DNA from: a virus
Taxonomy: Duplodnaviria > Caudoviricetes
Virus record (IMG/VR): IMGVR_UViG_3300031993_000072
Coordinates: 1,330 to 65,329 of that record
DNA length: 64,000 bases
Strand: one strand, 5' to 3'
Of the stretch, positions 3,704 through 56,900 are shown piece after piece. The first letter of the stretch is position 1, and the number at the start of each line of letters is the position of its first letter. The position numbers and the translations under genes are program-made. The notes beneath the pieces are model-generated. The model saw nothing but the letters and a program-made list of their open reading frames with translations, ran no database searches and was not told where the DNA came from.

Positions 3704-6700
3704 CCTCCTACCAGCGCATTGTACATATCAATGCTTTTCTTCGCCGTCTGTCCGAACCTGGCCGATGCACCAATGTTTACGTTCATTTCCTTCTCCAGGA
3801 TTCTGCGGAGCAGTTCGTTCTGCTGGCGAAGCAGGTTGTTCTGTTCCGTGTTGGCATCACGCACACCCTTTTCGATACCGGAAACGATCTGATCCTGGTT
3901 GGCGACGGCAGTATGCCCGCCAATAGTTCCGACCACCTCCGGACCTGCCTCCCCAGCGAGGAACAGGGTACCCGTATCCACAAATCCGCCCTTTGCCATT
4001 GCTTGCAGGCTTACGGTTCCAAGTCCTCCTCCGCCGCCCGTCACATGAACTTGCAGCGTGGACCCATCAGACTTCAAGCCAACGGGGATCTTAATTGCAC
4101 ATGCATTTGCAACTCCTTGCAGAATACCTGCTGCTGTGGATATTGCAACCTTTGCGGCAGTTCCAACATCAGCCTGCACCGTGATGTCCGGGAGAGTTAA
4201 AGATGTTCCCGTAACAACTTTCTTGATACCGGACGCGGCATTGCTTACAACCTCTTTGGCAGTATTGCCGTATGTTTTAGCAGGCTTTACAATTTCCGGA
4301 AGATTCATTGTCAACCCGGTAACAACTTTCTTGATACCGGTTGCGGCACTTTTTACAACCTCTTTGGCAGTACTGCCGTATGTTTTAGCAGGCTTTACAA
4401 TTTCCGGAAGCTTCATTGTCAAACCCGTAACAACCTTCTTGATACCGGACGCAGCACTGCTTACAACCTTTTTGGCTGTATTTCCGTATGTTGTAGCAGG
4501 CTTCTGAATTTCGGGCAGTTTTATTGTCACATCAGTAACAACATTTTTAATTCCTGTAACAGCACTGCTCACAACCTTTTTGGCAGCATTGCCGAACCCG
4601 TTAGGCGTTTGCGCATCTGGAATTACAGGAGGATTATCATTAACCTCCTTATTGATCTTGTCCATGATATCTCTTGCAGTTTCCTGCACTTCCGGTGTTC
4701 CTGCCTCAAGGCCATTACGGAGCAGACGATCAACGTTAATTCCTGCTTCTTCTGCTGCTTGCAGTGCCTCTTCTGCACCAAACGCATCAATCAGTGCATT
4801 GAGGAACTCAAACTTCATATCATAGGACAGCGTGTTCCAATGAACGAGAGAAATCAGTTCAGATGCATCAAATGCAGTTTTAAGATCAGCAATATCTTCC
4901 GGATGCACTTTCAGATGTTCGATAAGCCTGTTCTGCATTTCCGTTGTAAGCAGATCCCACCCGCCGACTTCAAGCAGATCGTTGATATCAATCTCAGTCA
5001 TATCCATTCCGTTGGTGGTGAAGATTTGTTCAAGCGTTTCCTTGAACCCATTGACATGGATCATGCTCTCAAGGGTTTCCTGGTCCCAAAGAATCTGTAC
5101 GCTGTTCGGATCGAAGTTCTTTTCAACCCATTCCTGCAGCATTGTCTTTCCGGGAGCAGAAATGTCCTCAAAGGTTTTATCAATATTGTCCTGGAGATTT
5201 GCCTTAATGGTTTCAAGGCCTTCTTTTGCCTCTTCCAGTTGTGCTTTAAGTTCTGCATTATTCGGATCAAGTTCAACCATCTTTGTAAGAGCATTTACAA
5301 GACGAACCTGGTTTGCGTATGCGGTTTCCTCAATCTGTCTTGCAGCTTCTCTCATCTGTTCTTTATAATTTCCATATTCCTGCATGACAGCATTGAAGCT
5401 TGAAGAATCAAGATCCTCAAGTTTAAGGCTTAAATCAATCTCCGCCTCTGTCGAGATGTCTGTTCCCGCAATAATATTTGAAATTTGATTAATCTCATCA
5501 AGAATCGCAGCAACACGTTCCGGCCTCTTGACAATAAGTTCGTCATTCTCGCCTTCAACAATATTGTCCGCAAGTTCTTTACCAAGACCTCTTACATATT
5601 CCTTAACCGTTTCCCATCCCGCAATGTTTCCGGTATACCATGCACCCTGCGAATCTTCATCCTCTCCGACAAGTTGAGGCGTAAACTTCAGAACAAGCTT
5701 ACTTGTTTCTTCCGCTGTATTAATATAGTTGACGATAGAATCAATCAGTCCGCCGTTGCCGGTAATCTGATCTTTGATCGTTTTATAGTCGTTATCCGTT
5801 GCAAGTCCAAGATTTACGACTTCAAAAGTGCCAAGGAGTAGTTTCAGCTTGCTTTCAATGTTTTCCCTTGCTTTTTCGCTCATGCTCACGTTATCTTTGG
5901 CAATGTCGATCATCAGATTAGGGTCAACAGAGAACATCTTCTTTTCAACAAATACCTTGACTTGTGCTTCTGTCAAAGTGACGAGATTATCGTCAACCGT
6001 TATCTTATTGGAAGAAGTCAATGCTTTAATTCCAATATATGCCGCAAATGTTGCAATGGCAGCGCCTGCCGCAATGGCCCATCCACCACCAAGCACGGCT
6101 ACTCCAAGGCCTACAGATGCAGCACTGATGATGCCAGATACAACGGACTCCTGGGAGAAGACCTCAATATTATCATCGCAGATTGCCTTTATGCCAACTG
6201 CCGCGCCAAACACGATCAATGCAACGCCGGCCGCTCCCTGGGACGCAACAAGCATTGTGGAATTACCAACAGTTTTCAGAAGAATTCCTGCGGCAGCGCC
6301 AACTTTCAGTGCATTTACAACAAGAGTAACAAGACTTTCCTTACTCAGCGCACCAACGTCAGCGTTGTCACAAACAGCTTTGATGCCTGTCAATGCAGAG
6401 AATGTAAGCGTAATAGCCGCAACCCATGCACCCGCATTACCACCGATAAAGTGCTTTGCAATAGATGCAGCAGCAGTAGCGCCTACTGCTGTAGTAAAGA
6501 TCTCAGCAATCAGCCAGCCTTCGTTTCCGGTATTAAGATACTGATTTGTCAGCAGCCATGTCAGTTGCAGCGTAATGGCAATTGCCGCGCCGGTTGCGAT
6601 AAGACCAAACAGTTGAGACAGCACGGGAACTGTTTCCATAAAAGCATTGCCGAATTTCCACGCAAGCAATGCCGTTTCAATCGCGACTGCAATTCCCAGT

Positions 6701-29257: not shown

Positions 29258-29833
29258 TTATTCGTCGTCTGGTATCGCTTCTGCCAGACGTTTCCTTGCG
29301 TCGTCTGCACTCATTCCCTGCAGCGGATTGTTCGGAGTGACCACGACATCCGCGACGTCTTTATAGTTGAACCAGTTCTTTGACAGGAAGATCCCGGACG
29401 CAGGATTGATCTTCCCGGTCATCATCATATCCGCCCACATTTCTTCGATCAGACACCGCGCTCTTTTAACTATGTCACCGTGTGTGGCGGCCCGCGTGAC
29501 CCCATTTTCCCATTCATTCAGCGCCTGTCTGGATATCCCAAGCCAGTTACACATGCCGACGATTTGTGGCCTGCGATCGTTCTTGATGCAGTATTCAAAG
29601 TACTCGCCAATTCGATTCTGTACTTGTACAGGGTCAGATATATCGATTGGTGGCAGGTTCCATGATGCGAGTGCGTGTCGTACGTAACGTGCGTTCTCGC
29701 CCGGTGCCATACCGACGCCTTCCGCGGTAAGATCCTTCATCCAGTCGGACCCACGGTTACGTTTTTTCTTCACGACTTCACGGATCTGATCGTCGGATAC
29801 ACCTGTTCCGTTCTTATCCGGCACTGATGACAC
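29258..29833 (-). CDS. terS: Terminase small subunit (P22 gp3-like DNA packaging protein)
   Basis: GMCNWLGISRQALNEW HTH and GKINPASGIFLSKNWFNYKD motif. Confidence 0.75.
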   Translation of the reverse strand: MSSVPDKNGTGVSDDQIREVVKKKRNRGSDWMKDLTAEGVGMAPGENARYVRHALASWNLPPIDISDPVQVQNRIGEYFEYCIKNDRRPQIVGMCNWLGISRQALNEWENGVTRAATHGDIVKRARCLIEEMWADMMMTGKINPASGIFLSKNWFNYKDVADVVVTPNNPLQGMSADDARKRLAEAIPDDE

Positions 29834-30416
29834 CTCCCTTCACGTTCATCCAGGTTCCGAGGTTCTCGACGTATTGCTGATAGGTCATGTCGTCCATATC
29901 AGTCGGCAGGTCGTTCGTTTTCGTCACCTTTTTGAACGTCGTGTCAATCACGCCGCAACCCATGTCGTCGTTTACGACATACATTTCATATGGCAGTTCT
30001 GTACGGGCCTTCACGAATGCCTTCCAGACGTCTCCGGTCCACGGTTCACCATACTGTGATTCGGTATGATGTTCCTGCATCCGTTCGGAGGTCGGCAGGC
30101 AGTCATGCAGGACAATCACGCCGCCTGGATTGAGACACTGCAGCGAGTTATGGATATCGCGGTACACCTGGTTCCGTTCGTGGAGTCCGTCGATGAATAC
30201 GATATCGAAGTGAACGTCTGGGAACTGCTCAAAGAAGGCGTCGGAGGTCAGATGGTGGGTAGCGTGTGTGTTGGGATCTGGATCGACGGATACCTTGATT
30301 GGGCAGTGGACGTTATTGAACGACGCACCATACAGGGTACCGATTTCCAGGTATGACTGATAGTTGCGGGCCTTGATAAAGTGGTTAATGATGTCAAAGC
30401 GGTACAAATTATTCAC
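29814..30416 (-). CDS. Class I SAM-dependent methyltransferase
   Basis: YLEIGT, FDIVFIDGLH, GGVIVLHD. Confidence 0.85.
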   Translation of the reverse strand: MNNLYRFDIINHFIKARNYQSYLEIGTLYGASFNNVHCPIKVSVDPDPNTHATHHLTSDAFFEQFPDVHFDIVFIDGLHERNQVYRDIHNSLQCLNPGGVIVLHDCLPTSERMQEHHTESQYGEPWTGDVWKAFVKARTELPYEMYVVNDDMGCGVIDTTFKKVTKTNDLPTDMDDMTYQQYVENLGTWMNVKGGVISAG

Positions 30417-31845
30417 CTTCCTTCATGTTTGCGAACGGAATATCCGTCCATGGCATTGACGTATACGGTTGCTGTGCTGCCGGGAGTTCTGCCTTTGCGC
30501 GGTCCAGGTAGTGTTTGATCTTAGGATACGAACACTTTGCAGATATGAATGCGGCGTTGTAGGTTGACGGAATCTGGAGGATTTTACCGGCACAAAACTT
30601 ATTGAGCACGTCCTGTTCCAGGTGCTGGTAGTGAGTTGTGTTAATCTCATCAATCACGCGCTGATCCATACCGGTCGAACGGAAGAGGTCGAGGTTCATG
30701 AGCATGACGCCGGCATTGTAGTACGGATCCACGATAAGGCCACCTGTGAAGATATCAACGACACCCGCGTAGAAATAGTCAGTAATGTCATAGTTCCATA
30801 TTGATGAGATATCGTCGACAACGACGGTATCGGAGTCCAGCCAGAGGACGCGTGACGTATCCGGCGGGAGGATCCGGGTGAGGCCGGCGCGGACGGTAGT
30901 CATGTAGGAGTAGTACCAGTTGATGTTCGGACCATCCAGTGGGAATATATTCTGGTGCGATACGTTGATGCACTGAATGAGATCCGGGAGCGGTTCCGGG
31001 AAGGTATCGTCCTCAATGAGGAAATAGATCTTATCAACCGGGGAATGATAGAGCAGAGACTTTGCCGCGGCGACCATGTTCTTATAGTATCCGCGGTTGC
31101 CGGAATATACAACAATCCGTGGATACATGACGGATGCCAGCGTAGCATCGCGGACTTCCGGGAAATGACACCAGGACTTGAGGCAGGCAAAGTGAGAGAT
31201 TATGGAATGTTCTGGTTTCCCGGTGAGGTTGCATACCTTTGAATTATCATTGTAGCTGTTAGGCAGTTCAATGAAATTGTCGGTACCGCAGAGTTCATTG
31301 AACGCGTCCTGCTCATTGTACTGGTAATACCTGGTGTTCAGCGCGTTGATGATCTTATCGTCCATACCGGTACTGCGGAGGTAATCCAGGTTGAGAACGA
31401 CCACGCCGAAGTTAGAGTAATAATACCCGACTTTCATGGTCATGCCGATCTCAGTGGCGGCCGCGTAGTATGCGTCAGTCATATCAAACTGCCAGAGGAA
31501 TGAGATATCATCGTTCACAATGGTGTCGATATCCAGCAGGAGTGAGCGATCCGCGTCCGGGAAAAGCTTGGGTACTGCGGCCTTCATGAGGACCATATAC
31601 GTGTACTGACTGCGGAAGTTCGGGCCATCCTTGGGAAAGAATGTCTGGTCCGCGATGTTGATGATCGTGACGTTATCCGGATGCACCAGGGGGAACGTGT
31701 CGTCCTCGATCATGAGATAGACATGCACATCCGGGTTATGCTGCAGCAGTGAGTTGTATGCGGCCGGACACATGTCATACAGGTTCCGCGTTGCGAAGTA
31801 GACAACGATTTTTTCGCCTGGCTTTGTGTGGATTGCGTCAATCAT
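30409..31845 (-). CDS. Tandem double GT8-like glycosyltransferase
   Basis: Two homologous halves with LLLDIDTIV / LWLDSDTVV, NxGVxxxNL and EQDxxN motifs. Confidence 0.85.
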   Translation of the reverse strand: MIDAIHTKPGEKIVVYFATRNLYDMCPAAYNSLLQHNPDVHVYLMIEDDTFPLVHPDNVTIINIADQTFFPKDGPNFRSQYTYMVLMKAAVPKLFPDADRSLLLDIDTIVNDDISFLWQFDMTDAYYAAATEIGMTMKVGYYYSNFGVVVLNLDYLRSTGMDDKIINALNTRYYQYNEQDAFNELCGTDNFIELPNSYNDNSKVCNLTGKPEHSIISHFACLKSWCHFPEVRDATLASVMYPRIVVYSGNRGYYKNMVAAAKSLLYHSPVDKIYFLIEDDTFPEPLPDLIQCINVSHQNIFPLDGPNINWYYSYMTTVRAGLTRILPPDTSRVLWLDSDTVVVDDISSIWNYDITDYFYAGVVDIFTGGLIVDPYYNAGVMLMNLDLFRSTGMDQRVIDEINTTHYQHLEQDVLNKFCAGKILQIPSTYNAAFISAKCSYPKIKHYLDRAKAELPAAQQPYTSMPWTDIPFANMKEGE

Positions 31846-32197
31846 CCGTACCATCCTCCTTCTTTTCCAAGAATCCTGTTTCTTCCATGACCCTGCGATT
31901 TGCCCGGTTAACAACCATCCAGATCACTGGTGTAGGTATGCCTGTATGTGCGGAGTAGTTTTCCACAGCATATCTGTCATCCCCCCAATGGGAAGTAAAG
32001 TACATCCGCAGAATCGCCTGGTCTGTTGCGACGAACTTCTTAAGGAACAGGTGGTGGCAGATCGCATAGATCTTACGGTCCGGTGTGGATAGATTTTCCC
32101 ATACAAAACCGTCACGTTCCAGAGCAAAGTACACACGCCACATATGGGTAGCTGTACCCTTCCACCACTGCGATGATTTGGAACGATCAACTCTCAT
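31838..32197 (-). CDS. Hypothetical protein, possibly a late transcription regulator
   Basis: Position upstream of terS; helical C-terminus; weak call. Confidence 0.4.
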   Translation of the reverse strand: MRVDRSKSSQWWKGTATHMWRVYFALERDGFVWENLSTPDRKIYAICHHLFLKKFVATDQAILRMYFTSHWGDDRYAVENYSAHTGIPTPVIWMVVNRANRRVMEETGFLEKKEDGTDD

Positions 32198-32417
32198 GGC
32201 TGGTCACCTCCTGGAATGGCGTTTGCTCGATAATGGCTGGCATTTCAGATGTTTCCATCATGATGGCGACGCGTTCATCGAGATCTTCCAGACGATCCGC
32301 GGATTCCAGAACTACACGCAGCCGGTCGCGAGTGAGCATTCCGCCGGACTCACCCATGAGGCGAAGCTTCCGGACGAGATCTTTCGTAGGGGTATTGGGT
32401 AATTGTTTTTTGCTCAA
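32187..32417 (-). CDS. Hypothetical protein
   Basis: Translationally coupled ORF. Confidence 0.5.
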   Translation of the reverse strand: MSKKQLPNTPTKDLVRKLRLMGESGGMLTRDRLRVVLESADRLEDLDERVAIMMETSEMPAIIEQTPFQEVTSHES

Positions 32418-33073
32418 TGGTCATCACCTCTTTTCAGCATGTCTTCAGTGAACAGGAACTGGCCGATGTGTCCGCACTTGACGCGGCTGTCGCACCAGAT
32501 GTGTCCGCTGTACAGATCGTCGTGTTCCAGCAGCTGGTTCACGCGGTAGCAGAATGATACGTCCTCACCGGCCCAGGGGTATGGAGAGAATGCAGGCCCG
32601 AAGCGATCCCATATTGCCTTGATAAGTTTGACGGATGTCATGACGCAGCCGAAACCGCAGCCTTCAATCGTGAACATCTGGTTTCTGGGGTAATTCATGT
32701 ATTCTTCAATGTGGATCTGCGGGATCCCATTCTCATCCGGTACCGGAGGACGAACGGACTGGTAGATAACAGGCTTGACCGGGAACGTACGCTTCACATA
32801 CAAACCTGACACCATGTCGATGTGCGGATGGTTCATGTCTTCCAGCAGGCGCGGTATTGTATCCGGAAGGAAGGTCATATCGGAATCCATCCACATGATG
32901 TAGTCAAATCCCTGTTCGATGGCAGTGAGTGACAGCAGGTTGCGGGCGTCATAGATCAGCGAACTGGATTTGAAGCACACCTTCGTGCCTTCCGGTTTCT
33001 GAAGGTTCAAAAGGGACTCGACGAATTGAATTGGTACTGTACCCATACAGGGGATTGCGATCATAACTGACAT
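32414..33073 (-). CDS. GT-A fold glycosyltransferase (GT2-like), paralogue of 12770-13414
   Basis: VMIAIPC, ARNLL, WMDSD, GCGFGCVM, GEDVSFC, DSRVKCGH. Confidence 0.75.
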   Translation of the reverse strand: MSVMIAIPCMGTVPIQFVESLLNLQKPEGTKVCFKSSSLIYDARNLLSLTAIEQGFDYIMWMDSDMTFLPDTIPRLLEDMNHPHIDMVSGLYVKRTFPVKPVIYQSVRPPVPDENGIPQIHIEEYMNYPRNQMFTIEGCGFGCVMTSVKLIKAIWDRFGPAFSPYPWAGEDVSFCYRVNQLLEHDDLYSGHIWCDSRVKCGHIGQFLFTEDMLKRGDDH

Positions 33074-37357: not shown

Positions 37358-38266
37358 TCAACTCCTTTGTTCTTCTTCTCCAAGCCACCAGCGCATGACA
37401 TCTTCCGGCGTCTCCCAGTTTTCGCTTGGAAATCCCCTGGTTTTTCTTTCCTCAAGCATTCTTTCGAAAGCTTTCAGATACATTTTTTTGTACTTTGGCC
37501 ACCTTTCGAAATCTTCTTTCTGTTTATGGACCCTTTTCATTGGGCAGCCGATACAACCAAGACGCGTAAGACCTTCATCATACAGGCAACAATGTTCAAT
37601 CCCGTTGCTGTTCAAAAAGTTCCACACGTCTTCTTCCGTCCAGTCATAGATCGGATTTACCAGGCGCTTTGTCGTACGAACGCAGTGTGTAATCATCTGG
37701 GCGCTTTCAGAGTCGTCGTAATTGAGAATTAGTCCACCCTTCGGAGTGACTGTATAATTCGCGTTGTTTTGATCAAGGTATTTTATAACTTTTTTTCCTG
37801 GACTCGGGATTGTAACGACACCTTGGTTATTTTTTCTGTTAGAACTTTCCTCACGTCTTACACCTGTGACGGTAATGCGATACTTTCCGTTTGATTCTTT
37901 TAGTTTTTCGCAGCAGAATCTAGCAAGCCTGGTCGGCGGCATACATTTCCTGGGAATAAGATTCCACATGGTGACGACATTTCCACATGAATCATGCGGA
38001 TAATCAAAAATCACATCCGGGTAATGAGTCCGGATAAAATGTACAAGTTCCGGAGGGTCAACAGATGTTACATTATAATGGGCATCAAATTTCACACCTG
38101 CCATTTTGCAGAGATGATAAACGCACTGCGAATCCTTGCCACCAGAGAAAGCTACATAATATCCTTCATCTGGTTCAAACATTTTCAGCCTTTGAATTGA
38201 AAGACTTACTTTATCTTTTATTATTCCGTCAAGTCCGAACTCAAGTTGTTCAAACATATAAATCAC
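37358..38266 (-). CDS. PAPS reductase-family (CysH/DndC-like) protein 1
   Basis: VAFSGGKDS PP-loop, FCCEKLKE, RLGCIGCP. Confidence 0.85.
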   Translation of the reverse strand: MIYMFEQLEFGLDGIIKDKVSLSIQRLKMFEPDEGYYVAFSGGKDSQCVYHLCKMAGVKFDAHYNVTSVDPPELVHFIRTHYPDVIFDYPHDSCGNVVTMWNLIPRKCMPPTRLARFCCEKLKESNGKYRITVTGVRREESSNRKNNQGVVTIPSPGKKVIKYLDQNNANYTVTPKGGLILNYDDSESAQMITHCVRTTKRLVNPIYDWTEEDVWNFLNSNGIEHCCLYDEGLTRLGCIGCPMKRVHKQKEDFERWPKYKKMYLKAFERMLEERKTRGFPSENWETPEDVMRWWLGEEEQRS

Positions 38267-48770: not shown

Positions 48771-49241
48771 TCAATCCGACATCAACTCCTTCAGTACGTC
48801 GTTCAGCGCACGACTGTTATTTCCAAGCGCCTTTTTTATGAAGCACAGTGCGACACCATACTGCGGATCGTAACGATCCCGCTCATCGCACTTTACAACC
48901 GTCCTTGTTCCGTCTTCCCAGTAGACAATCGTCGCCGGGTAGTTGTAGATGACCCTGGTGTGCCGCAGAAATTTAGGTATCCTATTCTTACCGGATTTAC
49001 TGGAAACAAGAGGATCTTTGACTCTGCATTCAAGACGAATGGCCGTGCATCGTTCAAATGGGCCGAAACCACTCATATGAGGTTCGGAACTTATTACATC
49101 CATGTGAATTTCGTTTCCATTCCCGTCTTTCAGAATGCAGTCTTCTGCGCTAGTTGCGTTAAATAACAACTTATTCAATCTGTATTCCTCCTTATTCATA
49201 TCTGATAAAGTTCGGACCATAGATCTGATTGCAATCATCAA
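48771..49241 (-). CDS. Conserved phage hypothetical protein
   Basis: VIYNYPATIVYWEDGTRTVVKC...YDPQYGVALCFIKK. Confidence 0.6.
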   Translation of the reverse strand: MMIAIRSMVRTLSDMNKEEYRLNKLLFNATSAEDCILKDGNGNEIHMDVISSEPHMSGFGPFERCTAIRLECRVKDPLVSSKSGKNRIPKFLRHTRVIYNYPATIVYWEDGTRTVVKCDERDRYDPQYGVALCFIKKALGNNSRALNDVLKELMSD

Positions 49242-50340
49242 AGACTTTTTTCATTCCGAGTCCTTCTTTGGATGGAACCCATATTTCCTTCGGGTTCCAG
49301 TTCTCCCAGAATTCGTCCATCTTTGGTGCAGTAGGATCATATGCTGGATTCGGTACCCATTGTCCGCCACCCATGCAGTATTCATATTGCCGCGGGTGAG
49401 TCTTGGCCAGTTGTTGGAATCTTGTTTCACCCTTTTCGTTATGAACGCCAAATCCGCAGAAGATGCATCCGGTCCGCTCACATTTGCTGCATTTCAGTTT
49501 TCCACTGCCAGGAATAAGAGAATCATATTCATAACCATCGTTGTCGGTTTTGACTTCAACGATATCACCATAGACGGAACAGATTTCAATTCCGCGAGTG
49601 ACGATGTATTCCAGAACGTCCTGTTCTCTCCAGAATGACATTGGCGTACTTGATTTGTGTTTGCCTTCAAATGCATTGCATCCTTGACGAATCCAGGTCC
49701 GTTCACGCAGTTTGCTTTCTTCTGTTAAGGTGCCTATAATCGGATAAACACCATGTTTTTTCTCATATGCGCTTAATGGTTCTTTCTTCATTATGTTGCA
49801 GCAATAATGAGAAATCATAAACTGTGTGTCACGGGCAAGCGGCAACCATTTTCTTTTTTCATAGTAGCCTTTGTCAAAAGGAGGAATCCCATGCAAAGCT
49901 TTTCTTCTCCAGTTAAGCCATTCTCCATTTGGATTTTTCGTTGGAACCCCAGCACCTTTCCGCTGGCCTCTTGCTCCGTTTTTTATAATCCTTGCTCCAT
50001 GGATAGTTTCTGCATTCTCTTTGCTGATGATCGGATATCCGTATTTGCTTATTACTTCCGAAAACATCAACTTCGGCCGAATAAAATCCGCTCCCATTTT
50101 TCTAGCAAAGGACTGGATCTCTGGATATTCCAACCCAGTATTGCTAAAGACTAATGGCACGTCTGGATACATGTCATGAACAATATGAGCAAGTACCGTA
50201 GAGTCTTTACCACCACTAAAAGATACACACACATCTCCATTCCAGTAGTTGTACCATTCGCGGATTCTATTCTGTGTCATCAGAACCTTTGCTTCCAATG
50301 GAAGCGCCTGTCGTTGAAGCAAATCTGATTTTGTTGGCAT
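49192..50340 (-). CDS. PAPS reductase-family protein 2
   Basis: VSFSGGKDSTVL, CCNIMKKEP, RTGCIFCGFG. Confidence 0.85.
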   Translation of the reverse strand: MPTKSDLLQRQALPLEAKVLMTQNRIREWYNYWNGDVCVSFSGGKDSTVLAHIVHDMYPDVPLVFSNTGLEYPEIQSFARKMGADFIRPKLMFSEVISKYGYPIISKENAETIHGARIIKNGARGQRKGAGVPTKNPNGEWLNWRRKALHGIPPFDKGYYEKRKWLPLARDTQFMISHYCCNIMKKEPLSAYEKKHGVYPIIGTLTEESKLRERTWIRQGCNAFEGKHKSSTPMSFWREQDVLEYIVTRGIEICSVYGDIVEVKTDNDGYEYDSLIPGSGKLKCSKCERTGCIFCGFGVHNEKGETRFQQLAKTHPRQYEYCMGGGQWVPNPAYDPTAPKMDEFWENWNPKEIWVPSKEGLGMKKVFDDCNQIYGPNFIRYE

Positions 50341-50568
50341 CTGCTTCATCCTTTCATTTTGTACTTTCATTAATACGTTTCGTAATATTTAGGGGATTTT
50401 TTATAGCCGGCGATCCCCCGACCGGCTGGCATAGTTTCCTTTCCATTCTGCCCGCTGGAACGAAACGCACAAACAAGCGGCGGGCCTTATTGAGGAAACA
50501 ATCTGACGGAGTGTCCAGATCTGGCCTTATAGACCGTGCCATGTAACACAGCACCCATGTCCCCGATG

Positions 50569-51290: not shown

Positions 51291-51800
51291 TCAATCTTCA
51301 CCATCCAGTTCTAAAAATTCAGTCTGCACATATCCTTTATTTGTGAGGCACCACTCCGGCGTCCACCAGAACACTGTTATTGTGTCCATCGGTTTCATCC
51401 AGTATTGAACCTTGCCTCCGATTCCTTTCCTGGCCGCCAGCCTGCCGTTGCTTACGACCGTCGCCTGCTGGTCAATCCGGACCGGTTCAGAATAGACAAC
51501 GTACTGCGTACTAATCCAGCCTTCCGATTCTTCTGCAGGGACGTCAACAACATGGATGTACTTATTCTTAATTCGTCCATCTGTGTGCAGCCTTGTACAG
51601 CAGGTAGCGCCTCCGAAGGCGAAGGATGTCTTCCGCGGCGCCTCCCGCACACACACAAAGCTGTCGGAAGTACACATGATCCAAACGTCGGTTGTATATC
51701 CTTCGGCAATGCCTGCGTCATGCAGGAAAATGAAGCAAAAGATCATAATCGCAAGGATCAAAACCAGTTCGATACACACAATGATGACTTTATTTTTCAT
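51291..51800 (-). CDS. Membrane-anchored SH3b-like protein
   Basis: N-terminal hydrophobic helix; two VR/AR...GWI/GYV units. Confidence 0.5.
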   Translation of the reverse strand: MKNKVIIVCIELVLILAIMIFCFIFLHDAGIAEGYTTDVWIMCTSDSFVCVREAPRKTSFAFGGATCCTRLHTDGRIKNKYIHVVDVPAEESEGWISTQYVVYSEPVRIDQQATVVSNGRLAARKGIGGKVQYWMKPMDTITVFWWTPEWCLTNKGYVQTEFLELDGED

Positions 51801-52264
51801 GCGCTTTCATCCTCTCGCATCAGTTCGTCGATAGCATTCATTACACCGGCCAGTTCCGTAAGTGTTTCATACTTAGCCTTGAAGGAAACAAGTTCACGTT
51901 TTGCGATTTCCAGCAGCCTGGACTTCTTTGCATCGTCACTGAAAATGATTTCAGTTGGAAGATACTCATGCGTACCGCGTTCGATGTTGAAATAGGCACG
52001 GACCGGTTTTGTTTCTTCTTCCGCATCCGGTGTGACGATAATGCTGCGGATCATGTTGGCCGCACGGCCTTCACGATACTTCTGAGCGGCTTCCTTATCA
52101 TTCAGATCGAAAAAATCCTCATGCAGCGGTGCATTCTTTGGCCGGCTGACCTCCACCAGTTCGGATGGAGAAAGTCGACCTTCCGCTGCAAGCTGGTCCA
52201 TTACCTGTTTTGCCACTTCCGGTTTCGCCTTAAAGCAGCTGCCTTTTACCCAAGAGATCCCCAA
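51797..52264 (-). CDS. Hypothetical protein directly downstream of the pentamer array
   Basis: TTG start after AAGGAG; PxxxVExSR...PLHEDF...AAQKYR. Confidence 0.7.
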   Translation of the reverse strand: MGISWVKGSCFKAKPEVAKQVMDQLAAEGRLSPSELVEVSRPKNAPLHEDFFDLNDKEAAQKYREGRAANMIRSIIVTPDAEEETKPVRAYFNIERGTHEYLPTEIIFSDDAKKSRLLEIAKRELVSFKAKYETLTELAGVMNAIDELMREDESA

Positions 52265-52293: not shown

Positions 52294-52742
52294 ACCTGCC
52301 GTACTGTTCCGTACCGCTCCATAACTGACCCCGTCACACCAAACCACGCCTGCCTTACCAAGCCATGCCTTTCCGAACCGCACAGAACCGCGCACAACCT
52401 AACCATAACTCGCCTGCCATACCTTGACGCACCTCAACGAACAAAACCAAACATAACCTAATCACACCTTGCCTGCCATACCACACGTTGCCCCACCCTG
52501 CCGGGCCGGACCGGACAACACCCCAACAAACCTAGCCTGCCATGCCACGCCGTGCCGGAACTCAACGTACACAACCTCGCCTGCCGTGATTTTCCTTGCC
52601 ACGCCATACCAAGACAAACCAAACCTTGCCTGCCATTCCGTACCAATCCGGGCCATAGCACTCCATAACACACCTTGCCTGCCGGACCCTAACTCAACGA
52701 GCCGTACAATACCGAAACTTGACGTGACTCGCCTTGCCTGCC
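52294..52742 (-). ncRNA. Pentamer-phased GGY-NN array: 8 units delimited by GGCAGGC (candidate guide-RNA array)
   Basis: Delimiters (+ strand GCCTGCC) at 52736, 52677, 52628, 52579, 52535, 52471, 52412, 52348, and ACCTGCC at 52294; unit lengths 59,49,49,44,64,59,64,54 are all 5n+4. Confidence 0.85.
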
Positions 52743-52746
52743 ACGA

Positions 52747-53487
52747 TTAGGCGTTTTCTACGTGGAACATGCCGTACTGACCGTCTTTTTCCGGACGCCA
52801 TTCGCCAAGACCGCAGACATATCCACCGGCATTCAGCATGGAAATGATCTTGTCCAGGTTGTGGATGCCGTTTTCGTTGTAGGAAATCGTGAAATCGGCA
52901 TACCAGTTTTCCAACTGCCCGCGGTACCGGATATCAGCAGCACCCATACCGACACGGACCATGTCCCGACGCATTGTCAAACGTTCATACTGAATCTCAA
53001 TCATCGGTTCCGGATGGAAAACGTTCGGAATGATGTGGATTTCTTTCTGGTCGTCGGAGATTTCCATATCACCGGAATAATAGCCATCTACCGTCGGTTC
53101 AATGAAGAATGCTCCACGAAGGCTTGCCTTGTCTTTGCTCCATCCGAGCCGGTATGCTGCGCTGATAGCGGACTGTTTCAGACCGGTCAGCGGGAATCCA
53201 AACCGAGGGTCATTTGAAAGTGCTGCGTCAAGTGATTCCTTCGTAAATTCTTCCGGCATCTTGTTGAGCCAGTAAAGGCTGGAAGCGAAATCCTCATAGG
53301 GATTCTTCTTCAGTTTCGTAACCTTGCTGATTCCCATTTCCTTTTCCAGGATCGCCCGCTGTGCCTTCACGTCCCAGTTATGGCAGATCAGCGGGGAGTC
53401 CCCGACGATCCGGATCTTGGTCAATTTCTTCTGAATGGGTTCAATCTTGATGATCTCTGCTGCTTTCGTTGCCATGATAATTCTCAC
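52747..53487 (-). CDS. RAMP/Cas7-like RNA-binding protein (candidate effector of the array)
   Basis: N-terminal IRIVGDSPLICH strand and C-terminal Gly-rich loop GGYVCGLGEWRPEKDGQYGMF; stop is 4 nt before the array. Confidence 0.6.
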   Translation of the reverse strand: MRIIMATKAAEIIKIEPIQKKLTKIRIVGDSPLICHNWDVKAQRAILEKEMGISKVTKLKKNPYEDFASSLYWLNKMPEEFTKESLDAALSNDPRFGFPLTGLKQSAISAAYRLGWSKDKASLRGAFFIEPTVDGYYSGDMEISDDQKEIHIIPNVFHPEPMIEIQYERLTMRRDMVRVGMGAADIRYRGQLENWYADFTISYNENGIHNLDKIISMLNAGGYVCGLGEWRPEKDGQYGMFHVENA

Positions 53488-56547: not shown

Positions 56548-56550
56548 AAG

Positions 56551-56900
56551 TGGAGGTGACGGGGGTCGAACCCGTGTCCAAACTACAACAAATACTGAGA
56601 TTTCTTACACGATAGTCAGATGCGATGACGCGCTGAGGAAAGGGAAAATCCTCTCATGTCCACCACCTGGTCTTTGAACTGTGACCAGGAGTTCAGCTGG
56701 CTTTTGCCAATCACCATTCATTCTCTGATCCGCAGGAAGTTACCGAATGGTAGGCCTTCCGTTTAAGAGCGAAGCTGCATTAAGCAGCCTTCAGTTCGCA
56801 GTAGATTTCTTCTTCGTCAGTTCTTTTGTTTGACCCATAAGGCGGTATCATACCCGTGATCTCAGTACCATTCATAGCCTGTCGAAACCATTTCACCCCC
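56551..56900 (-). ncRNA. ssrA: tmRNA
   Basis: 5' GGGGGTGAAATGGTTTCGAC; 3' GGGTTCGACCCCCGTCACCTCCA; G3:U acceptor pair; tag ORF 56780-56818 encodes (A)DEEEIYCELKAA*. Confidence 0.92.

What the first reader, a model, noticed from the sequence alone, without database searches (positions are those of the whole stretch)
52294..52742. Pentamer-coded GGY-NN repeat array: candidate non-CRISPR programmable guide-RNA system
Seen directly. On the minus strand, starting 4 nt after the stop of 52747-53487, the DNA parses without error into 8 units. Each unit is GGCAG + GC-NN + 7-11 pentamers of a near-constant trimer (mostly GGT/GGC, with GTT, TGT, GGA, GTC variants) plus a free dinucleotide. Unit lengths 59,49,49,44,64,59,64,54 are all 5n+4, so phase is strictly kept while NN varies. 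NN strings: U1 AA GA AC AA TC AT AC TC GA AG CC; U2 AA GT AT GT AT CC TT AC AT; U3 AA TT TT TT AT GT AA AA AC; U4 GA TG AC GA CC AC GT AT; U5 TA TT GG GT CC CC CC AG GG AA GT AT; U6 AA GT TA TA TT TT TC GA GC AA AT; U7 GA AT TA TG GC TC GC TC AA AT TT AA; U8 GT TT GT GG CA AT GC AC AC AC. A 5-nt period does not fit protein coding. Inference: each unit is a guide RNA, one protein subunit binds each pentamer, and the NN bases read a gapped target, like a repeat-spacer array with interleaved information. From memory (unverified), this resembles recently reported phage 'VIPR'-type systems in which every third target base is skipped. If so, the guides would be blind to codon wobble positions.
Basis: partly seen in the sequence, partly recalled or inferred. 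Interest (0 to 1): 0.95.

Follow-up and report, generated by a model that had tools for sequence, protein, structure and literature searches.

The report
Phage VIPR guide-RNA array
This 65-kb phage carries a real copy of the VIPR system described in 2026 (a Cas7-like protein plus guide RNAs built from five-base repeats). One of its eight guides spells, letter for letter, a conserved stretch of the DNA polymerase gene of other phages. It is a good new example of a known kind, not a new kind.

Summary
On the minus strand, 4 nt after the stop of the 242-aa gene, eight GGCAGGC-delimited units spaced 59,49,49,44,64,59,64,54 nt form a strict 5-nt-period YNNGG array.

- The 5m-1 spacing is the "staggered array" with 1-nt overlap named in that paper's fig. 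S18 legend.
- Relatives with 33-73% identical Vipr keep the delimiter and phase, but their NN differ.

New here:
- Guide U7, read by the published 1-nt-skip rule, matches 24/24 in 21 IMG/VR contigs. Every match is in frame on the peptide DIYCASASKMF of a family A DNA polymerase, and variation is confined to wobble positions.
- This phage has no such polymerase.
- No convincing exact target turned up for six of the other guides. U4 was not scanned.
- A conserved 155-aa neighbour is a candidate accessory gene.

This scan has noted VIPR loci many times before on other DNA. Verdict: new member of a known kind.

The parts
52747..53475 (-). vipr gene (242 aa, P0001): stand-alone Cas7-like RAMP that should bind one pentamer per protomer
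52295..52742 (-). staggered vrRNA array: 8 guide units plus a closing GGCAGG delimiter
   Evidence: eight GGCAGGC-delimited units, spacings all 5m-1, lag-5 identity 0.50 against 0.289 in shuffles. The RNA fold is no more stable than shuffles (z -1.7). No Rfam family matches it.
52682..52741 (-). unit U1 (12 pentamers, 11 variable NN)
   Evidence: No exact 1-nt-skip match in viral contigs.
52633..52682 (-). unit U2 (10 pentamers, 9 NN)
   Evidence: Three exact matches in viral contigs lie in unrelated ORFs, which is chance level.
52584..52633 (-). unit U3 (10 pentamers, 9 NN, A/T-rich)
   Evidence: The 31 matches are all in A/T-rich contigs with no common gene, which is chance level.
52540..52584 (-). 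unit U4 (9 pentamers, 8 NN)
   Evidence: Not scanned: 16 specified bases would give dozens of chance hits.
52476..52540 (-). unit U5 (13 pentamers, 12 NN)
   Evidence: No exact match in viral contigs or metagenome contigs.
52417..52476 (-). unit U6 (12 pentamers, 11 NN)
   Evidence: No exact match in viral contigs or metagenome contigs.
52353..52417 (-). unit U7 (13 pentamers, 12 NN): guide against family A DNA polymerase genes of other phages
   Evidence: The 1-nt-skip pattern matches 24/24 in 21 IMG/VR contigs. All matches are in frame on DIYCASASKMF(K/N) in PF00476 proteins. There are 14 distinct site sequences that differ only at skipped bases. Skips of 0, 2 or 3 reach at most 18/24 on the same DNA.
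52299..52353 (-). unit U8 (11 pentamers, 10 NN)
   Evidence: No exact match in viral contigs, and none within 3 mismatches in 5 whole target-bearing contigs.
51797..52264 (-). candidate vipr-accessory gene (155 aa, P0272, TTG start after a GGAG ribosome-binding site)
   Evidence: Homologues lie next to vipr in L003-L006 (after the array) and in L007, L010 and L013 (between vipr and the array). It matches phrog_15946 of unknown function, has no Pfam family and no PDB relative. Its Atlas clusters are viral hypotheticals.

Best explanation
This is a phage-encoded VIPR locus with the gene order vipr, staggered vrRNA array, candidate vap, all on the minus strand.

Inferred from the layout:
- The array starts 4 nt after the vipr stop with no promoter between, and it ends at the ribosome-binding site of the next gene. 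It is therefore most likely transcribed with vipr as one RNA.
- The RNA would be divided at the GGCAGGC marks into eight guides of 9-13 pentamers.
- In GGY-NN register the mark is a repeat that is one base short (GGC-A). It shifts the phase by -1 and so sets the guide boundaries.

Taken from the SUSP1 structures and supported here by conserved residues:
- One Vipr protomer binds each pentamer.
- Vipr hides the GG-Y bases and presents the NN bases.
- The NN bases pair with double-stranded DNA while every third target base is skipped.

Shown here:
- Guide U7 spells codon positions 1-2 of a 12-codon conserved segment between motifs A and B of a family A DNA polymerase, carried by other, unrelated phages.
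- This phage lacks that gene.

Inferred function: the phage uses at least this guide to bind, and so silence, the replication gene of competing phages or resident prophages in a shared host, in a way that silent mutations cannot escape. Targets of the other seven guides are not known.
For: - Published definition and mechanism of VIPR.
- Array anatomy and statistics.
- Phage context (tape measure, portal, terminase, primase/helicase, endolysin, repressor). G000 is a 65,329-base virus record.
- Conservation of delimiter and phase with changing NN in 5 close and about 9 distant loci. One guide is shared by L005 and L006, with identical NN but different Y bases.
- Target of U7.
- Skip-rule and shuffle controls.
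- The match covers exactly the 12 NN between two delimiters. The constant CA of the delimiter pentamer is not matched on either side.
- No self-target and no family A polymerase in this phage.
Against: - No transcript, processing or binding data exist for this locus. The paper's main text reports small-RNA sequencing for the ribozyme-interspersed and single-vrRNA arrays but none for staggered arrays.
- Only 1 of 8 guides has a convincing target. The searches could find only exact matches, so this is a weak negative.
- In ten named phages with a homologous polymerase, U7 matches only 14-22 of 24, so its reach is a sub-clade, not the whole family.
- The host of this phage and of the target phages is not known, so co-occurrence is not shown.
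- The 155-aa neighbour has no recognisable DNA-binding or nuclease domain, so the output (silencing or cutting) is inferred from type II.
- 27 of the 82 guide pentamers have GT, TG or another pair in place of GG.
Confidence: 0.93

Rival explanations
1. It is a VIPR locus, but its output is not plain transcriptional silencing. The conserved 155-aa partner, or a host factor, would turn target binding into DNA damage, replication block or abortive infection, as proposed for the nuclease-linked VIPR types III-V.
For: The partner gene is conserved next to vipr across 33-73% identical loci and has no known domain. The paper reports that vap genes differ by type and include nucleases and helicases. 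The target lies deep inside a 650-aa gene (site at about codon 420 of 650), far from the promoter, where a roadblock may be less effective.
Against: No nuclease or helicase motif was detected in P0272. In the studied type II system, binding on either strand within or near a gene silences it. The protein is too small for most helicases.
Confidence: 0.15
2. The locus is a decaying or silent remnant. The array is not processed into working guides, and the U7 match is a relic of a past conflict.
For: Many pentamers depart from GG (27 of 82). Seven guides have no known target.
Against: The vipr reading frame is intact and keeps all residues that are invariant in the family. All eight spacings keep phase. 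U7 itself holds three degenerate pentamers yet matches 24/24. Degeneracy inside vrRNAs is described as frequent in the paper's methods.
Confidence: 0.05
3. The tract is not a guide array at all. It would be a G-rich simple repeat with another role (protein coding, replication or packaging signal, G-quadruplex DNA) that happens to lie next to a Cas7-like gene.
For: Short ORFs overlap the tract. The minus strand is 41% G.
Against: A 5-nt period with a -1 shift at each mark cannot encode protein. The same marks and phase follow vipr homologues in unrelated phages while the NN differ. A 24/24 in-frame match, seen only with a 1-nt skip, in 21 contigs is expected fewer than 0.001 times by chance. 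The calibration is that an 18-base pattern gave 3 unrelated hits and 20-24-base patterns gave none.
Confidence: 0.01

Closest known systems
VIPR systems with staggered vrRNA arrays (bioRxiv 10.64898/2026.04.26.720920, fig. S18 legend)
   Same: A stand-alone Vipr RAMP is followed by YNNGG pentamer guides that abut with a 1-nt overlap (unit spacing 5m-1). There is no structured tail or ribozyme between guides. The locus is phage-borne and small, with one partner gene.
   Different: The paper's text gives neither a sequence for the junction nor an experiment on this architecture. Here the junction is the conserved heptamer GGCAGGC, also kept in loci whose Vipr is only 33-38% identical. In this clade the array lies between vipr and the partner gene, whereas in the distant loci it lies after both. 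Which of the seven types this belongs to could not be determined.
Type II VIPR of Escherichia phage SUSP1 (Vipr structure PDB 36pp; bioRxiv 10.64898/2026.04.26.720927)
   Same: The protein is homologous (profile E 1.5e-14). The GGY-contact residues are kept: His in the first strand, the thumb Arg, and the G-loop C-G-x-G-[DE]-W-R. The 1-nt-skip code is the same, with skipped bases on wobble positions of a coding target.
   Different: The protein is 242 aa against 202 aa, and only the C-terminal third aligns by simple sequence search. Guides are 45-65 nt without the roughly 40-nt 3' tail and pseudoknot. There are eight guides in one uninterrupted tract. D177 is Glu here. The natural target is a phage DNA polymerase rather than a satellite recombinase or lysogeny regulators.
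Cas7/Csm3 backbone subunits of class 1 CRISPR effector complexes
   Different: There are no CRISPR repeats, no other cas genes and no adaptation genes. The step is 5 nt rather than 6, with three guide bases hidden per step. Sequence identity is only 10-18%.

Membership tests
VIPR system | Sequence homology to an experimentally characterised Vipr | tested here: met
   PDB 36pp_D 'SUSP1 Vipr protein' is the only significant PDB match: E 7.9e-5 with the single sequence and 1.5e-14 with the profile of 122 homologues.
VIPR system | Residues that hold the GGY bases (SUSP1 H17, R138, D177, W178, R179) | tested here: met
   They align to H32, R185, E225, W226 and R227. In family alignment A1, R185 and R227 are invariant, H32 is kept in 112/122, E/D225 in 121/122 and W226 in 103/122. 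D177 is Glu here, a conservative change.
VIPR system | Helical-bundle lysine that contacts the target backbone (SUSP1 K33) | tested here: inconclusive
   The N-terminal part aligns only weakly to SUSP1. K37 is kept in 117/122 homologues, but its equivalence to K33 was not established.
VIPR system | vrRNA gene: at least four tandem YNNGG units with conserved GG-Y and hypervariable NN | tested here: met
   Of 82 guide pentamers, 51 are exact YNNGG and 76 end in GG, GT or TG. The NN positions carry 0.14-0.16 bits. The NN differ in all related loci.
VIPR system | Natural target matched by the 1-nt-skip (NNx) rule, not by other skips | tested here: met
   U7 matches 24/24 in 21 contigs. Skips of 0, 2 or 3 and shuffled guides reach at most 19/24 on the same DNA. 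Met for one guide only. No convincing exact match was found for six others, and U4 was not scanned.
VIPR system | Non-CRISPR, minimal, mostly viral locus with a vipr-accessory (vap) gene | tested here: inconclusive
   The viral context is clear, and no CRISPR-type repeat is present. A 155-aa gene is syntenic with vipr in 7 other loci, but it could not be equated with any of the published vap1-6. The paper's supplementary data are not held.
VIPR system | vrRNAs are expressed, processed and co-purify with Vipr | not testable with these tools
   This needs small-RNA sequencing and a pull-down.
VIPR, staggered-array architecture | Adjacent vrRNAs share one nucleotide, so the end of one marks the start of the next | tested here: met
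   All eight spacings are 5m-1. With one shared G, every unit is a whole number of pentamers. The fig. S18 legend is quoted. The U7 target covers exactly the NN between two marks.
VIPR type II (SUSP1-like) | Invariable 3' tail of about 40 nt with a conserved fold or pseudoknot after the repeat tract | tested here: not met
   Units abut directly. The only constant part is GCAGG-C, and the fold is no more stable than shuffles.
VIPR types I-VII | Placement on the Vipr phylogeny with matching vap and array type | not testable with these tools
   The tree and data S4 are not held as text.
CRISPR-Cas | Array of identical 20-40-nt direct repeats separated by unique spacers, with cas genes for adaptation and interference | tested here: not met
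   The longest constant element is 7-10 nt. Neighbouring genes are phage genes with no Cas families.

The most novel reading that the evidence does not exclude
The conserved GGCAGGC junction, a repeat that is one base short (GGC-A-GGC), is the whole punctuation system of staggered arrays. By shifting the pentamer phase by -1 it would stop one Vipr filament and start the next, or mark the cut site. Guides would then be defined inside a vipr-array-vap messenger without a tail, ribozyme or Cas6-like enzyme. With such guides the phage shuts down the replicative DNA polymerase gene of rival phages, a target class not mentioned in the main text of the three VIPR preprints.
Probability: 0.35. Interest if true: 0.55.

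Novelty: new member of a known kind. Interest (0 to 1): 0.36.

Why it matters
VIPR was described only in 2026, and experiments cover mainly one type from E. coli and Pseudomonas phages. This locus adds three things.

1. It is a cleanly parsed staggered array with its junction sequence. The paper's main text reports no small-RNA sequencing for this architecture.
2. It gives independent confirmation, from natural sequence alone, that the 1-nt-skip, wobble-blind code holds in a distant Vipr branch. That branch shares detectable sequence with SUSP1 Vipr only in its C-terminal third.
3. It gives a concrete natural target, a conserved segment of a family A DNA polymerase of phages of gut and rumen Bacillota. 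That makes a simple reporter or plaque test possible.

It does not change the picture of what VIPR is.

Tried and rejected
**Target searches that gave nothing usable**
- Exact 1-nt-skip scans of IMG/VR found nothing for U1, U5, U6 and U8.
- Scans of JGI metagenomes found nothing for U5 and U6.
- U2 gave 3 hits in unrelated ORFs. U3 gave 31 hits in A/T-rich contigs with no common gene. Both are at chance level.
- U4 was not scanned, because 16 specified bases would give dozens of chance hits.
- All of these scans find exact matches only, so targets with 1-4 mismatches would be missed.

**Other target tests**
- Self-targeting: the best match in the phage's own genome under skips 0-2 is at most 83% (15 of 18 for the short A/T-rich U3 at skip 0; at most 81% under the 1-nt skip). 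Skip 3 only finds the array itself.
- Other guides against the contigs that carry the U7 target (205 kb of fragments and five whole contigs): nothing above shuffled guides.
- Thirty guides from related arrays, tested against this phage and against 758 kb of fetched DNA: nothing above the controls.
- Breadth of U7: in ten named phages with a homologous polymerase it reaches only 14-22 of 24. I therefore dropped the idea of a family-wide guide.

**Methods that failed or were uninformative**
- Folding the protein without an alignment failed (pLDDT 34.6).
- Vipr has no Pfam family, only phrog_4652 of unknown function.
- Rfam shows nothing on the array, and TRF misses it.
- The partner protein has no Pfam, PDB or Atlas lead.
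- No near-identical phage was found in the phage collection.

Full report
**1. Observation**

The minus strand between 52742 and 52295 was read directly and parsed by script.
- The upstream gene stops at 52749-52747. Four bases later the heptamer GGCAGGC begins.
- It recurs seven more times, and a closing GGCAGG lies at 52300-52295.
- The spacings are 59, 49, 49, 44, 64, 59, 64 and 54, all equal to 4 mod 5.
- Identity at a lag of 5 nt is 0.50, against 0.289 +/- 0.02 in 500 shuffles, with echoes at lags 10 and 15.
- The 82 pentamers behind the delimiter have a pyrimidine at position 1 in 75 cases, G at position 4 in 72 and G at position 5 in 64. The two middle positions carry almost no information.
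- No other such tract exists in the 65-kb genome.

**2. What is already known**

- VIPR was reported in April 2026 (10.64898/2026.04.26.720920). A cryo-EM paper (.720927) and an October 2026 paper on phage-satellite competition (2026.10.15.759431) followed.
- Its parts are a stand-alone RAMP protein (Vipr), usually one accessory gene (vap), and vrRNAs made of YNNGG repeats.
- GG-Y is held by the protein, and the NN pair with double-stranded DNA while every third target base is skipped.
- The paper names several array architectures. One is 'staggered arrays' in which neighbouring vrRNAs overlap by 1 nt (fig. S18 legend).
- A 1-nt overlap between guides made of whole pentamers gives unit spacings of 5m-1. 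With one shared G the eight units are 60, 50, 50, 45, 65, 60, 65 and 55 nt.
- The paper's main text cites small-RNA sequencing for the ribozyme-interspersed and single-vrRNA arrays, but none for the staggered type.

**3. The protein**

The 242-aa product of 52747-53475 (P0001) has no Pfam family and matches only a PHROG of unknown function.
- Sequence: its only significant match among all PDB sequences is 'SUSP1 Vipr protein' (36pp). The E-value is 7.9e-5 for the single sequence and 1.5e-14 for a profile of 122 homologues.
- Key residues: the alignment places H32, R185 and E225-W226-R227 on SUSP1 H17, R138 and D177-W178-R179. The structure paper shows that these residues hold the two guanines and the pyrimidine. 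In the family alignment R185, R227 and three G-loop glycines are invariant, and H32, E/D225 and W226 are nearly so.
- Family size: 6,886 clusters in one database and 2,199 representatives at 50% identity in another, all unnamed.

**4. Context**

The window is nearly all of a 65,329-base virus record.
- It encodes a tape measure protein, portal, large terminase, DUF927 primase/helicase, helicase, exonuclease, endolysin and a repressor-like regulator. It is therefore a tailed, probably temperate phage.
- No promoter-like site lies between vipr and the array.
- The array ends at the ribosome-binding site of a 155-aa gene (51797-52264).
- That gene is a conserved neighbour of vipr. Homologues follow the array in L003-L006, and in the more distant L007, L010 and L013 they lie between vipr and the array.
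- It is the natural candidate for the accessory gene, but nothing indicates its activity.

**5. Related loci**

- In five IMG/VR contigs whose Vipr is 55-73% identical, a GGCAGGC-delimited array follows vipr (directly in L002 and L003; after a terminator-like hairpin of about 90 nt in L004-L006). Spacings are mostly 5m-1, and the array closes with GGCAGGC just before the next gene.
- Contigs with 33-38% identical Vipr, including one that coincides with a Methylobacterium genome contig (same match coordinates and period-5 tract), also use GGCAGGC with spacings of 44, 49 and 54.
- The NN strings differ in every locus.
- One guide is shared by L005 and L006. Its NN are identical but three of its Y bases differ. 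That is the pattern expected if the NN carry the information.

**6. Targets**

I wrote each guide as NN-x-NN-x... and scanned IMG/VR for exact matches.
- U7 (24 specified bases) matched 21 contigs.
- All 21 sites are in the same frame on the peptide DIYCASASKMF followed by K or N, inside 640-750-aa proteins that match Pfam DNA_pol_A.
- The segment lies between motif A (DFSaiEaR) and motif B (RqKGKiaELAlGYGG). From general knowledge of family A polymerases, it corresponds to the DIH..TA..VF segment of E. coli Pol I.
- The sites comprise 14 distinct sequences. Variation is confined to the skipped positions, and the one invariant skipped base belongs to the Met codon.
- The polymerases are 51-100% identical to each other. 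Five fully fetched contigs range from 29 to 50% G+C.
- On the same DNA, skips of 0, 2 or 3 and shuffled guides reach at most 19 of 24.
- The chance level can be calibrated from my own scans. An 18-base pattern gave 3 unrelated hits, and patterns of 20, 22 and 24 bases gave none. I estimate fewer than 0.001 chance hits for 24 bases.
- The match covers exactly the 12 variable NN between two delimiters. The constant CA of the delimiter pentamer is unmatched on both sides. This independently supports the unit boundaries.
- The phage itself has no family A polymerase and no self-target.

**7. Limits of the target result**

- U1, U5, U6 and U8 had no exact match in IMG/VR. U5 and U6 had none in JGI metagenomes either.
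- The few U2 hits and the many U3 hits are at chance level. U4 is too short to scan.
- The published analyses accept an NN match of 80% or more, and these tools cannot search that way at scale.
Their hosts include Ruminococcus, Oscillospiraceae, Acutalibacteraceae, Streptococcus, Erysipelothrix and Terrisporobacter.
- They carry DIYC.SAS.MF variants that match U7 at only 14-22 of 24 positions. U7 therefore addresses a sub-clade, not the whole family.
- Those hosts suggest that the conflict takes place among phages of gut or rumen Bacillota. The host of this phage is not established.

**8. Mechanism**

Shown here: the anatomy, the protein's identity, conservation across loci, and one natural target obeying the code.

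Inferred from the SUSP1 work: one protomer per pentamer, filament formation, triplex or R-loop binding, and transcriptional silencing.

Inferred from the layout: co-transcription with vipr, and division of the transcript at GGCAGGC. In GGY-NN register the junction reads GGC-A-GGC, a repeat with a single N. My suggestion is that this one-base deficit breaks the filament's register and so defines the guide ends. How the RNA is cut, and whether it is cut at all, is unknown.

The array RNA shows no fold more stable than shuffles and no ribozyme.

**9. Verdict**

This is a genuine, well-preserved VIPR locus of the staggered-array kind, a new member of a published family. This scan has already noted such loci many times on other DNA.

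Its particular value is threefold: the junction sequence, the vipr-array-partner gene order, and a clear natural target in a rival phage's DNA polymerase gene. The main text of the three preprints does not mention that target class.

One tool (look-up of encoding contigs) was closed, so arrays of the nearest relatives (90-93% identical Vipr) could not be compared.

Noticed in passing
window 56548-56900 (-): The phage carries a full-length tmRNA gene (Rfam RF00023, 103 bits against a gathering score of 47). ARAGORN reads its tag peptide as DEEEIYCELKAA, which is acidic and unlike the usual ...ALAA tags.
   Followed up: partly
window 49192-50370 (-) and 37358-38266 (-): The same phage has two separate PAPS-reductase-like genes (PF01507 / phrog_424). 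In phages, genes of this family are often linked to DNA modification.
   Followed up: no
window 29814-33073 (-): A cluster of glycosyltransferase genes (family 8 and family 2) and a methyltransferase gene lies next to the primase/helicase gene. It may act on DNA or on cell-surface sugars.
   Followed up: no
L004-L006, about 4730-4810 (between vipr and the array): In three related phages a strong terminator-like hairpin followed by a T run separates vipr from the array. In this window only 4 nt lie between them. Array transcription may therefore be controlled differently in the two groups.
   Followed up: no
Phage collection hits H1-H25: Full-length relatives of this Vipr (28-32% identity over 97-98% of the query), annotated as hypothetical proteins, occur in 27 Mycobacterium smegmatis phage records and 5 Gordonia phage records. 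These cultured phages could serve as laboratory models for this Vipr branch. Their arrays were not examined.
   Followed up: no
L005 5047-5096 and L006 5029-5078: Two related phages share one guide with identical NN (nine dinucleotides) while three of the pyrimidine positions differ. This is a small natural example of selection acting on NN only.
   Followed up: partly
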